Origin: Escherichia coli
GTDB taxonomy: Bacteria; Pseudomonadota; Gammaproteobacteria; Enterobacterales; Enterobacteriaceae
Direction: 5' to 3' (one strand)
NCBI RefSeq assembly: GCF_044647545.1
Contig: NZ_CP172818.1
Length of the DNA: 64,000 nucleotides
Shown here: positions 27,941-30,900 of the stretch, one piece after another
Layout of the letters: the number at the start of each line of letters is the position of its first letter
Position numbering within the stretch: the stretch's first letter is position 1
Program-made: the position numbers

Positions 27941-30900
27941 TCAGTAAAAGCGAATGGAGGGAGATTACACGAGATAAAGAACGCGAGCGACAGTAAATTA
28001 GGTGCGAAAAAAAACCTGCGCATCCGCGCAGGTTGGTGCAAGAGACAGGGTACGAAGAGCGTACCGAATAATCTCACCAATCAATACCTCTGGGATCTTG
28101 ATTGTGGTCTGCACGACGACTCTTCGCCAGCGAGAAAACGCAAAGGAATGAAGGGAAATGCAACGAGGTGTGTAAATTGTCGGTTACTGTTACAGATTGA
28201 TGACCGGCAAAAAAAAACCTGCGCATCTGCGCAGGCTGGTGTAATTCATGTGCTCAACCCGAAGTTGACTTCACCTATCAATACCTCTGGGATCACCACT
28301 TTAGCAACCTGAAGCCAAACGCCACCAGCAGTCAATCGCAACAGCGTTTCGCAAAGTGTAACCAAAGGTTTGCAATCTCTTTTTTTGTCTTACTTATTTG
28401 CGTTTGGCTCACATTCCCACGATGAAAGCATGCCCCCCCTTGAACCAACGGGCGTTTTCCGTAACACTGAAAGAATGTAAGCGTTTACCCACTAAGGTAT
28501 TTTCATGGCGACCATAAAGGATGTAGCCCGACTGGCAGGCGTTTCAGTCGCCACCGTTTCACGCGTCATTAATAATTCACCCAAAGCCAGCGAAGCTTCC
28601 CGACTGGCTGTGCATAGTGCAATGGAGTCTCTTAGCTATCACCCGAACGCCAACGCCCGTGCGCTGGCGCAGCAGACCACTGAAACGATCGGTCTGGTCG
28701 TTGGTGATGTTTCCGATCCGTTTTTCGGTGCAATGGTGAAAGCGGTCGAACAGGTGGCTTATCACACTGGTAATTTTTTATTGATTGGCAACGGTTACCA
28801 CAACGAACAAAAAGAGCGTCAGGCCATTGAGCAACTGATCCGCCATCGCTGTGCTGCGCTGGTTGTCCATGCCAAAATGATCCCGGATGCTGATTTAGCC
28901 TCATTAATGAAACAAATGCCCGGTATGGTGCTGATCAACCGTATCCTGCCTGGCTTTGAAAACCGCTGTATTGCTCTGGACGATCGTTACGGTGCCTGGC
29001 TGGCAACGCGTCATTTAATTCAGCAAGGTCATACCCGCATTGGTTATCTGTGCTCTAACCACTCTATTTCTGACGCCGAAGATCGTCTGCAAGGGTATTA
29101 CGATGCCCTTGCTGAAAGTGGTATTCCGGCCAATGACCGGCTGGTGACATTTGGCGAACCAGACGAAAGCGGGGGCGAACAGGCAATGACCGAGCTTTTG
29201 GGACGAGGCAGAAATTTCACTGCGGTAGCCTGTTATAACGATTCAATGGCGGCGGGCGCGATGGGCGTGCTCAATGATAATGGTATTGATGTACCGGGTG
29301 AGATTTCGTTAATTGGCTTTGATGATGTGCTGGTGTCGCGCTATGTGCGTCCGCGTCTGACCACCGTGCGTTACCCAATCGTGACGATGGCGACCCAGGC
29401 TGCCGAACTGGCTTTGGCGCTGGCGGATAATCGCCCTCTCCCGGAAATCACTAATGTCTTTAGTCCGACGCTGGTACGTCGCCATTCAGTGTCAACTCCG
29501 TCGCTGGAGGCAAGTCATCATGCAACCAGCGACTAACCGCAGTTAAAGCAATTCCAGCGCCAGTAATTCTTCAATGGTCTGGCGACGGCGAATCAACCGC
29601 GCCTGACCATTATCAAACAGAACTTCTGGTAACAGCGGACGACTGTTGTAGTTGGATGACATTGATGCGCCATATGCCCCCGTATCATGCAGTACCAGAT
29701 AATCACCCGCCTTCACTTCCGGCAAGGCGCGGGTTTCGACATTTCCCCCTTCCTGCTGGGTAAAGACATCGCCCGATTCACATAACGGCCCGGCGACGAC
29801 GGTTTCCACCGTTGGCGCGTGTTCCAGAGAACGACCATCAGCTGCCAGGGCACTGATATGGTGGTAACTACCGTACATTGCCGGGCGCATCAGATCGTTG
29901 AACCCGGCATCAACCAGCACAAAGTGGCGGCTACCCATTTGTTTGACGCTTCGCACTTGAGTAATTAATACGCCAGCCTGCGCTACCAGAAAGCGACCCG
30001 GTTCAATTTCCAGTTTCACAGGATGGCCCAAATGGCGGGCGATTTGCTCACGCGCGGCATTCCATAGACCATAATAATGTTCAGTATCAACCGCCTCTTC
30101 ACCCTGTTGATAAGGAATAGAAAGCCCACCGCCCGCAGAAATAGCCTGTAAATCCTGACCGAATTCGAGGACCTGACGCACCATAGCACCACATACCTGT
30201 TCCAGATGGGCATAATCGACGCCAGAACCAATGTGCATGTGAATGCCGACCAGCTGTAGATGATGACGTTGTATCACGTCCAGTGCGGCGGGCAGATCGG
30301 TGTACCAGATACCGTGCTTGCTGTTTTCGCCACCGGTATTGGTTTTTTGGCTATGCCCGTGACCAAACCCCGGATTAACACGCAGCCATACCCGATGCCC
30401 TGGCGAAACCTGACCCAGTTGGTCGAGCATATCAACAGAACCCGCATTCACCGGAATTTGCAATTCACTGACGCGTTCAAGCGTCGCCTGATCGATAACA
30501 TCTGCCGTAAAAACAATATCATCGGGGTGCGTTTGCGGATTGTAACCCGCCGCCAGTGCACGCTCTATTTCGCCTAACGAGACGGAATCCACTTTTACGC
30601 CCTGCTCACGCATTAAGCGCAAAATATGAATATTGGAACAGGCTTTCTGTGCAAAGCGCACCACATCAAACTGTTTCAGCGCTGCAATCTGCCGACGAAT
30701 AATTTGCGCATCGTAGACCCACACCGGGCAGCCAAATTCTGCGGGCAAACGCAGCAGATTTTCGGCGGTGAGATCGGTATCAGTGCTGAACAGTGAATGT
30801 GGCATAACAAACTCCAGATAAGTGCTTTTTTATGATTACGCCACATCATAAAAAGAATAAAAAATATCGATTTGTGTCGAGTCTATGCAAAAATGATATG

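What the first reader, a model, noticed from the sequence alone, without database searches (positions are those of the whole stretch)
28007..28291. Tandem paralogous sRNAs OmrA and OmrB with identical ends and divergent centres
The two ~85-nt RNAs share the 5' seed (CCCAGAGGUAUUGAU) and the terminator hairpin but differ in the middle. They are known, but the local duplication is a clean example of sRNA gene duplication and a recombination-prone direct repeat between aas and galR.
Basis: partly seen in the sequence, partly recalled or inferred. Interest (0 to 1): 0.3.

Follow-up and report, generated by a model that had tools for sequence, protein, structure and literature searches.

The report
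E. coli OmrA/OmrB twin small RNAs
This is the well-studied pair of neighbouring regulatory small RNA genes omrA and omrB of E. coli; the finding is correct but already known, and the only small addition is that the short repeats they share do occasionally recombine in natural strains, leaving one gene or three.

Summary
Rfam's OmrA-B model (RF00079) matches the minus strand at 28007-28094 (omrA, 96.6 bits) and 28210-28291 (omrB, 86.1 bits; threshold 40). Both transcribed sequences are identical to the annotated E. coli K-12 genes b4444 and b4445. The only difference nearby is a ninth T just beyond the omrB match, at 28209. Their 5' ends (20 of 21 nt) and 3' ends are nearly identical and their centres differ.

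The mechanism is published, not tested here. Both are Hfq-dependent base-pairing RNAs activated by EnvZ-OmpR. Their single-stranded 5' end represses many mRNAs, including ompR. The promoters have diverged: omrA has -12C (sigma-S) and omrB has -12T (sigma-70).

I tested the "recombination-prone repeat" claim on 5,426 complete E. coli genomes:
- 10 carry the omrB promoter fused to omrA.
- 7 carry omrB only.
- 1 carries the reciprocal three-gene locus.

Every junction lies in one of two 18-nt identical stretches. Flanking haplotypes suggest about 13 independent events. Geometry then explains the published between-species pattern, in which single-copy species usually keep the omrB promoter.

Verdict: already known, low interest, interpretation supported.

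The parts
28007..28094 (-). omrA, an 88-nt small RNA gene. It is the downstream copy in the direction of transcription, next to aas.
   Evidence: RF00079 match of 96.6 bits over model positions 1-87. Identical to K-12 b4444. The predicted fold has nt 1-15 unpaired, then a closing stem, a central hairpin and a terminator.
28210..28291 (-). omrB, an 82-nt small RNA gene. It is the upstream copy, on the galR side.
   Evidence: RF00079 match of 86.1 bits. The 82 nt are identical to K-12 b4445. This window has a ninth T just beyond the match, at 28209, where K-12 has eight.
28080..28094 (-). OmrA 5' seed, CCCAGAGGUAUUGAU (nt 1-15), the target-pairing region.
   Evidence: Identical in all 50 homologues collected, though these were retrieved by exact match to this 15-mer, so that is not independent evidence. 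Unpaired in the OmrA fold and in both consensus structures. Compensatory-mutation evidence for pairing with ompR, plus mutational evidence for ompT and cirA, is in PMC2588501.
28277..28291 (-). OmrB 5' seed, the same 15 nt.
   Evidence: The single-sequence fold pairs part of it, but the consensus structure leaves it free.
28007..28034 (-). omrA intrinsic terminator: hairpin CCUGCGC-GGAU-GCGCAGG followed by U8.
   Evidence: Terminator scan. Across genera the stem occurs in four variants, with compensatory double changes at three positions.
28209..28237 (-). omrB intrinsic terminator: hairpin CCUGCGC-AGAU-GCGCAGG followed by U9.
   Evidence: Terminator scan. C-G to U-A compensatory change in 4 of 14 OmrB orthologues.
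28101..28106 (-). omrA -10 hexamer CACAAT at -12 to -7. The -12C is the published sigma-S determinant.
   Evidence: Read from the sequence relative to the transcription start at 28094. The role of -12C is summarised in PMC12692685 section 2.2. The simple sigma-70 scan does not call it.
28298..28303 (-). omrB -10 hexamer TAAAGT at -12 to -7, with -12T (sigma-70 type).
   Evidence: Read from the sequence relative to the transcription start at 28291; PMC12692685.
28095..28209 (-). The 115-nt spacer, which is the whole omrA promoter region. Positions -60 to -114 (28154-28208) hold TGTAACAGTAAC, TTTACA and GTTGCA motifs that look like OmpR boxes.
   Evidence: The K-12 omrA promoter from -114 to +50 is activated by OmpR-P in vitro and a -60 truncation is not (PMC5175337). 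The spacer is identical to K-12. It is absent from the 17 single-copy E. coli genomes. Calling the motifs OmpR boxes is inference by eye.
28292..28405 (-). omrB promoter region (-1 to -114), with GTTACACTTTGCGAAACGCTGT (OmpR-box-like) at about -71 to -50.
   Evidence: The same in vitro evidence, for the omrB promoter. There is one SNP relative to K-12, at about -39. The stretch TTGCG..TT....GCTGG.G is shared with the omrA promoter, so the duplicated unit included the promoter.
28080..28097 (-). 18-nt identical stretch GATCCCAGAGGTATTGAT. The omrB copy is at 28277-28294. This is the crossover site of the seed-class deletions.
   Evidence: In 10 E. coli genomes the omrB promoter runs directly into an OmrA body carrying the omrA-type T at position 16.
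28007..28024 (-). 18-nt identical stretch GATGCGCAGGTTTTTTTT. The omrB copy is at 28210-28227. This is the crossover site of the terminator-class deletions and of the one expansion.
   Evidence: In 7 genomes OmrB, with its own AGAU loop, is followed by omrA's downstream CGCACCTAATTT. One genome has omrB-omrA-omrA with the reciprocal junction.
25760..27919 (-). aas, the flanking gene.
   Evidence: ORF list; RefSeq annotation of an identical strain and of K-12.
28505..29536 (+). galR, the flanking gene.

Best explanation
The interval holds the two tandem paralogous small RNA genes omrA and omrB of Escherichia coli. Each is transcribed from the minus strand, from its own promoter to its own intrinsic terminator.

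Shown here:
- Family membership, and sequence identity of both transcripts to the characterised K-12 genes.
- Position between aas and galR.
- A shared architecture: a free 5' seed, a GGUG/CACC closing stem, a variable central hairpin, and a terminator with a U-tail.
- The duplication, promoters included, predates the Enterobacteriaceae radiation, and the omrB-then-omrA order is conserved.

Taken from the literature on the identical sequences:
- OmpR-P activates both promoters.
- Both RNAs bind Hfq and use their conserved 5' end to pair near the translation start of many mRNAs (ompT, cirA, ompR and others). This blocks translation and leads to RNase E-dependent decay. Repressing ompR closes a negative feedback loop.
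- The copies have partly diverged. omrA is sigma-S dependent through -12C, and its centre pairs with btuB. omrB is sigma-70 dependent and is activated by RstA in multicopy.

Inferred from my comparisons:
- The near-identical ends are kept mainly by purifying selection on the seed and on the terminator/Hfq module, with only occasional gene conversion.
- The two 18-nt identical stretches support rare repeat-mediated deletion and expansion. Because of the tandem geometry, a deletion always removes the omrA promoter and keeps the omrB promoter.
For: Family and identity:
- Rfam scores of 96.6 and 86.1 bits against a threshold of 40.
- The aas-galR intergenic region differs from K-12 MG1655 only by a few SNPs outside the RNAs and by one T beyond the omrB match. 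K-12 annotates ncRNA omrA and omrB at the matching positions.
- The locus is present in 5,423 of 5,426 complete E. coli genomes.

Structure:
- Both RNAs fold better than shuffled controls, z -2.7 and -2.9.
- The consensus structures keep the seed unpaired.
- The terminator stem shows compensatory changes at three positions across 46 distinct homologues.

Age of the duplication:
- The OmrB-type centre lies upstream and the OmrA-type centre downstream in Escherichia, Citrobacter, Enterobacter, Kosakonia and Pluralibacter.
- Promoters resembling the omrA and omrB promoters are also recognisable in Pantoea.

Mechanism (literature): PMC2588501, PMC5175337, PMC12692685, PMC13425233. The -12C and -12T hexamers are present in the window.

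Recombination:
- 17 genomes lack the spacer. Strict junction queries recover exactly 10 + 7 = 17.
- The junctions are verified base by base, and the intergenic lengths are 388 and 382/383 nt against 585.
- Each class falls into 6 flanking-haplotype clusters, 11-57 SNPs per 2.55 kb apart.
- One reciprocal three-gene locus exists.
Against: Nothing contradicts the identification.

Limits of the evidence:
- Expression, OmpR dependence, Hfq binding and target pairing were not and cannot be tested here. They rest on published work with K-12.
- The omrB promoter in this strain has one SNP (about -39) relative to the tested K-12 promoter.
- The single-sequence fold of OmrB pairs part of the seed.
- Within Enterobacteriaceae most predicted pairs never vary, so covariation support is limited to the terminator.
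- The count of independent deletion events rests on local flanks only. Recombination between strains could inflate or deflate it.
- Siccibacter colletis keeps an omrA-like promoter with OmrA only, so repeat-mediated deletion does not account for every single-copy state.
Confidence: 0.97

Rival explanations
1. The near-identical ends are kept alike mainly by ongoing gene conversion between the two copies (concerted evolution), not by selection on each copy's function.
For: In some genomes both copies carry the same lineage-specific state:
- Position 16 is C/C in Enterobacter sp. Bisph1, A/A in Pluralibacter, T/T in Serratia and Edwardsiella, and G/G in two Pantoea.
- The stem variant CCUACGC/GCGUAGG is found in both copies of Serratia grimesii and Edwardsiella.
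- The loop states are swapped or equalised in Enterobacter sp. R1, Citrobacter sp. R56 and Pluralibacter.

The repeats clearly can recombine.
Against: Sites that distinguish the two paralogues inside the 'identical' ends persist across genera. Position 16 is U in OmrA and A in OmrB, and the terminator loop is GGAU/GGAC in OmrA and AGAU/UUAU in OmrB, in Escherichia, most Citrobacter and Enterobacter, Kosakonia and two MAGs. Frequent conversion would erase these differences.

Single-copy species, where conversion is impossible, still keep the same 15-nt seed and terminator. This point is weaker for the seed, because the homologues were retrieved by exact match to that 15-mer.

The seed is functionally required for every target tested (PMC2588501).
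Confidence: 0.15
2. The single-copy and three-copy E. coli loci are assembly or sequencing artefacts, so the repeat is not really recombinogenic in nature.
For: Only assemblies were examined, not reads. The events are rare (18 of 5,423). No cluster holds more than 3 genomes.
Against: - The copies share only 18-38 nt of near-identity within a 200-nt period and have unique centres. That is not a repeat assemblers collapse.
- The same deletion on the same flanking haplotype recurs in assemblies with different sources. L003, L009 and L010 come from a human, sediment and a frog in China. L007, L008 and L011 come from two humans and river water in Japan. L015 and L016 come from a pig and a fish.
- Every junction falls exactly in an 18-nt identical stretch.
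- The same two products are fixed in other species (PMC13425233).
Confidence: 0.03
3. The conserved blocks belong to small protein-coding genes rather than to non-coding RNAs.
For: Mechanical ORFs of 20-78 codons overlap the region on both strands.
Against: - Homologue lengths vary between species by steps that are not multiples of three: 83-88 nt for OmrA types and 81-84 nt for OmrB types. The indels sit in the centre.
- Conservation is concentrated in a 21-nt 5' block and in a terminator hairpin with compensatory changes. That is an RNA pattern, not a codon pattern.
- Both sequences match an RNA covariance model end to end, and K-12 annotates them as ncRNA.
Confidence: 0.01

Closest known systems
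[quoted passage not shown]
   Same: Both transcribed sequences are identical, the flanking genes are the same, the omrA promoter is identical, and the -10 determinants are the same (-12C and -12T). This is the same locus in another E. coli strain.
   Different: Only strain-level variation: a ninth T after the omrB terminator, one SNP at about -39 of the omrB promoter, and three SNPs further upstream towards galR.
Single-copy omr loci of other Enterobacteriaceae: OmrB only, or a chimera of the omrB promoter with the omrA transcript (Mathis de Fromont et al. 2026, PMC13425233)
   Same: The 17 single-copy E. coli genomes fall into exactly these two classes. I also recovered them in Enterobacter sp. 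BIGb0383, Superficieibacter and Lelliottia (chimera) and in Shimwellia (OmrB only).
   Different: The paper describes fixed differences between species and, in its main text, does not mention recombination. Here the states are rare polymorphisms within one species, the crossovers map to two 18-nt identical stretches, and a reciprocal three-copy product exists. Siccibacter colletis (omrA-like promoter plus OmrA only) does not fit the published rule.
Loss of OmrB in Shigella boydii (Skippington and Ragan 2012, PMC3318445)
   Same: [quoted passage not shown]
   Different: That study of 27 genomes found OmrA in every genome. In 5,426 complete E. coli genomes, 7 have lost omrA instead. I did not examine Shigella, so I do not know which junction S. 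boydii carries.
Other sibling sRNA families with shared seeds, such as Qrr1-5, PrrF1/2 (tandem) and GlmY/GlmZ
   Same: Duplicated Hfq-type regulators with a common target-pairing region and diverged promoters, allowing different signals to feed in. This comparison is from general knowledge and was not tested here.
   Different: These are different families in different organisms, with no sequence relationship.

Membership tests
Rfam RF00079 OmrA-B family | Full-length covariance-model match at or above the curated gathering score (40 bits) | tested here: met
   96.6 bits (28007-28094, minus) and 86.1 bits (28210-28291, minus), both covering model positions 1-87 of 87.
Rfam RF00079 OmrA-B family | Conserved 5' end CCCAGAGGUAUUGAU at the transcript start, available for pairing | tested here: met
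   Exact in both copies. Unpaired in the OmrA fold and in both consensus structures, though partly paired in the single-sequence OmrB fold.
Rfam RF00079 OmrA-B family | GC-rich Rho-independent terminator hairpin followed by a U-tract (the usual Hfq-binding 3' module) | tested here: met
   The terminator scan finds both: 9 pairs, 6 of them G-C, with T8 and T9 tails. Compensatory changes occur at three stem positions across homologues.
E. coli omrA/omrB locus | [quoted passage not shown] | tested here: met
   aas and galR flank the pair. The order and strand match the K-12 annotation.
E. coli omrA/omrB locus | Sequence identity with the experimentally characterised K-12 genes | tested here: met
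   The alignment of the whole intergenic region shows both transcribed sequences identical. The only nearby difference is one T beyond the omrB match.
E. coli omrA/omrB locus | Transcription activated by EnvZ-OmpR; omrA additionally sigma-S dependent through -12C | not testable with these tools
   The omrA promoter (-114 to -1) is identical to the K-12 template that OmpR-P activates in vitro. The omrB promoter has one SNP. The -12C and -12T are present in the window. No expression data are available.
Hfq-dependent base-pairing sRNAs | Binds Hfq and represses targets by seed pairing, shown by compensatory mutations | not testable with these tools
   Published for the identical K-12 RNAs (PMC2588501). 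Not tested here.

The most novel reading that the evidence does not exclude
The two 18-nt identical stretches (GATCCCAGAGGTATTGAT and GATGCGCAGGTTTTTTTT) act as recurrent crossover or slippage sites. They repeatedly produce single-copy loci (omrB promoter fused to omrA, or omrB only) and occasionally three-copy loci in natural E. coli.

Because the repeats are direct and tandem, every such deletion removes the omrA promoter, and with it the sigma-S input, and keeps the omrB promoter. That would give a purely mechanical reason for the published pattern that single-copy species usually retain the omrB promoter. The fact that all the E. coli events sit at tips of the tree would point to selection maintaining both copies.

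The 18 named strains would then be ready-made natural experiments on why both paralogues are kept.
Probability: 0.75. Interest if true: 0.3.

Novelty: already known. Interest (0 to 1): 0.15.

Why it matters
The locus is a textbook example of sibling small RNAs, so identifying it adds nothing new.

The modest added value is population-level evidence that the shared ends are also recombination substrates:
- About 0.3% of complete E. coli genomes have lost one copy by one of two precise routes, and one genome has gained a copy.
- This gives a simple geometric explanation for which promoter survives in most single-copy species.
- OmrA is not strictly universal in E. coli.
- Named natural isolates now exist that lack either OmrB or both OmrA and the sigma-S-dependent promoter. 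They could be used to ask what the second copy is for.

Tried and rejected
- Long synthetic hybrid queries (186 and 208 nt) failed. The search tool joins the two half-matches of a normal genome into one 'place' with 100% coverage, so recombinants could not be told apart. Shorter junction queries with E-value cut-offs of 1e-35 and 1e-38 worked.
- The simple sigma-70 promoter scan found neither omr promoter. That fits weak, activator-dependent promoters. I placed the -10 hexamers by hand from the known transcript starts.
The species survey is therefore a sample and not a census, and the seed alone is not diagnostic.
- Consensus folding within Enterobacteriaceae gave almost no covariation, because most pairs never vary. 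Covariation appeared only when more distant genera were added.
- A seed-repeat expansion junction (omrA promoter fused to omrB) was searched for and not found.
- I considered and rejected a protein-coding reading of the overlapping small ORFs.
- I did not enumerate the other roughly 17 genomes with under 80% one-place coverage. At least one is an IS insertion.
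Full report
**1. The observation**

A scan of the whole 64-kb window against Rfam 15 gives three matches above threshold. Two are to RF00079 (OmrA-B), both on the minus strand and both full length:
- 28007-28094, 96.6 bits, E 6.4e-18.
- 28210-28291, 86.1 bits, E 2.3e-15. The gathering score is 40 bits.

These are exactly the two ends of the reported interval.

The repeat finder reports two direct repeats:
- The terminator repeat, 38 nt and 89% identical (28004-28041 / 28207-28244).
- The seed repeat, 24 nt and 96% identical (28074-28097 / 28271-28294).

The two RNAs are 88 and 82 nt long. They share nt 1-15 exactly, differ at position 16 (U against A), share GGUGA at 17-21, have centres that do not align, and differ at 2 of their last 32 nt.

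**2. What it is**

The 1.3 kb around the locus is 100% identical to several complete E. coli chromosomes and is present in 5,423 of 5,426 complete E. coli genomes, between aas and galR.

PGAP-annotated strains leave the intergenic region empty. K-12 MG1655 annotates ncRNA omrA (b4444) and omrB (b4445) at the corresponding positions. Aligning the whole aas-galR intergenic region (585 nt here) with K-12 shows both transcribed sequences identical. The omrA promoter/spacer is also identical. The differences are a ninth T just beyond the omrB match, one SNP at about -39 of the omrB promoter, and three SNPs further towards galR. This is therefore the omrA/omrB locus itself, in a non-K-12 strain.

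**3. Anatomy**

- Terminators: each gene ends in a 9-pair GC-rich hairpin followed by 8-9 U.
- Folds: each RNA folds better than shuffled controls, z -2.7 and -2.9.
- Consensus structure: sixteen OmrA-type and fourteen OmrB-type sequences from Enterobacteriaceae give the same consensus. Nt 1-16 are unpaired, GGUG (17-20) pairs with the CACC just before the terminator, the centre is variable, and the terminator follows.
- Covariation: within this family most pairs never vary, so they say nothing either way. Adding Serratia, Dickeya, Edwardsiella and Pantoea gives four terminator-stem variants, with compensatory double changes at three positions.
- -10 hexamers: reading upstream from the transcript starts, omrA has CACAAT (28101-28106, -12C) and omrB has TAAAGT (28298-28303, -12T). 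These are the published determinants of sigma-S dependence and sigma-70 dependence respectively (PMC12692685 section 2.2).
- omrA promoter: the 115-nt spacer is the entire omrA promoter region. The K-12 fragment from -114 to +50 is activated by OmpR-P in vitro, and a -60 truncation is not (PMC5175337).
- Extent of the duplication: the two promoters still share TTGCG..TT....GCTGG.G around -50 to -30, so the duplicated unit of about 200 nt included the promoter.

**4. How it works**

This part comes from the literature on the identical sequences and was not tested here.
- OmpR-P activates both genes (PMC5175337).
- Both RNAs bind Hfq.
- Their conserved 5' end pairs near the translation start of ompT, cirA, ompR and other mRNAs. 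Regulation needs Hfq and RNase E. A seed mutation abolishes control of every target tested, and a compensatory change in ompR restores it (PMC2588501).
- Repression of ompR gives negative feedback on their own synthesis.
- The copies have partly diverged. omrA needs sigma-S, and its centre pairs with btuB. omrB is activated by RstA in multicopy.

**5. Age of the duplication, and why the ends stay alike**

An exact-seed scan of one genome per species, followed by Rfam, gave 48 homologues from 30 loci in about 27 Enterobacterales genomes, plus the two in the window.
- In Escherichia, Citrobacter, Enterobacter, Kosakonia and Pluralibacter the upstream copy always has an OmrB-type centre and promoter, and the downstream copy has an OmrA-type centre and promoter. 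Pantoea also has one copy behind each promoter type. The duplication is therefore old.
- Sites that distinguish the paralogues inside the 'identical' ends persist across most of these genera: position 16 (U or A) and the terminator loop (GGAU or AGAU). That argues the ends are held by purifying selection on each copy rather than by frequent gene conversion.
- A few genomes have equalised or swapped states (Bisph1, R1, R56, Pluralibacter), so occasional conversion is likely.

**6. The 'recombination-prone' claim**

Deletions:
- The 115-nt spacer is missing from 17 of the 5,423 genomes that have the locus.
- Junction queries that a normal genome can only half-match, run with strict E-value cut-offs, recovered exactly 10 + 7 = 17 genomes.
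- All 17 were fetched and checked.
- In the seed class (10 genomes, intergenic region 388 nt), the omrB promoter runs into a complete OmrA, with the crossover inside GATCCCAGAGGTATTGAT.
- In the terminator class (7 genomes, 382/383 nt), a complete OmrB is followed by omrA's downstream sequence, with the crossover inside GATGCGCAGGTTTTTTTT.
- Both stretches are 18 nt of perfect identity.

Independence:
- Over 2,550 nt of flanking sequence, each class splits into 6 haplotype clusters, 11-57 SNPs apart. That suggests about 12 independent deletions.
- Clusters with several members come from different hosts and sources, which argues against assembly artefacts.

Expansion:
- The reciprocal junctions were also searched. 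None was found at the seed repeat.
- One was found at the terminator repeat. Strain H52_982342 has omrB-omrA-omrA in a 788-nt intergenic region, 585 + 203.

Other variation:
- At least one more variant is an IS3-family insertion in the spacer.

The repeat is therefore truly recombinogenic, but events are rare (about 0.3% of genomes) and every one sits at a tip of the tree.

**7. Relation to what is known**

- Mathis de Fromont et al. [quoted passage not shown] The word 'recombination' does not occur in their main text.
- My within-species data show the same two products arising repeatedly at defined 18-nt stretches. Any deletion between direct tandem repeats must remove the interval that contains the omrA promoter and must keep the omrB promoter, so the rule follows from geometry.
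- I recovered the chimera in Enterobacter sp. BIGb0383, Superficieibacter and Lelliottia, and OmrB only in Shimwellia.
- Siccibacter colletis is an exception, with an omrA-like promoter and OmrA only.
- Skippington and Ragan (2012) found OmrB missing from two S. boydii strains and OmrA present in all 27 genomes they examined (PMC3318445). Here, 7 E. coli genomes lack omrA.

**8. Verdict**

The population-level recombination result is an incremental addition, not a new kind of system. Interest is low.

Noticed in passing
L141 954-1741 (E. coli H52_982342, NZ_AP026085.1): A three-gene locus, omrB-omrA-omrA, in a 788-nt aas-galR intergenic region. It is the exact reciprocal of the terminator-class deletion, and the strain carries two copies of the omrA promoter with omrA.
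   Followed up: yes
L006 3136-4562 (E. coli 300709, NZ_CP025903.1); corresponds to window position ~28160: An IS3-family element, with its ALIL frameshift pseudoknot, is inserted in the omrA-omrB spacer about 66 nt upstream of the omrA start. This separates the OmpR-responsive upstream region from the omrA core promoter.
   Followed up: partly
L098 4050-4450 (Siccibacter colletis): A single omr gene with an OmrA-type centre behind an omrA-like promoter, about 315 nt from galR, with no omrB. This does not fit the published statement that the omrB promoter is always retained, and repeat-mediated deletion cannot produce it.
   Followed up: partly
L048 2747-4879 (Pantoea stewartii); also L077: In Pantoea the two omr copies lie about 2 kb apart. 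A 579-aa class B penicillin-binding protein gene (Pfam Transpeptidase plus PBP_dimer) sits between them, and aas follows the second copy.
   Followed up: partly
window 28209 and 28330: The T-run after the omrB terminator has 9 T here and 8 in K-12. There is also a single SNP at about -39 of the omrB promoter (T here, C in K-12).
   Followed up: no
window 28428-28435: Three SNPs relative to K-12 within 8 nt of the galR upstream region. They create a run of seven C on the plus strand (CCCCCCC here, CCACCCC in K-12).
   Followed up: no
window 51198-51268 (minus strand): A tRNA gene (Rfam tRNA, 71.6 bits). The anticodon loop reads CUUCCCAAG, consistent with tRNA-Gly(CCC).
   Followed up: no
E. coli genome collection: Three of 5,426 complete genomes have no match to the locus at all. 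One or two matches lie on records labelled as plasmids. About 17 further genomes have interrupted loci that I did not enumerate.
   Followed up: no
L021-L100 (genome-contig scan): The exact 15-nt seed occurs by chance in many unrelated bacteria and archaea.
   Followed up: no
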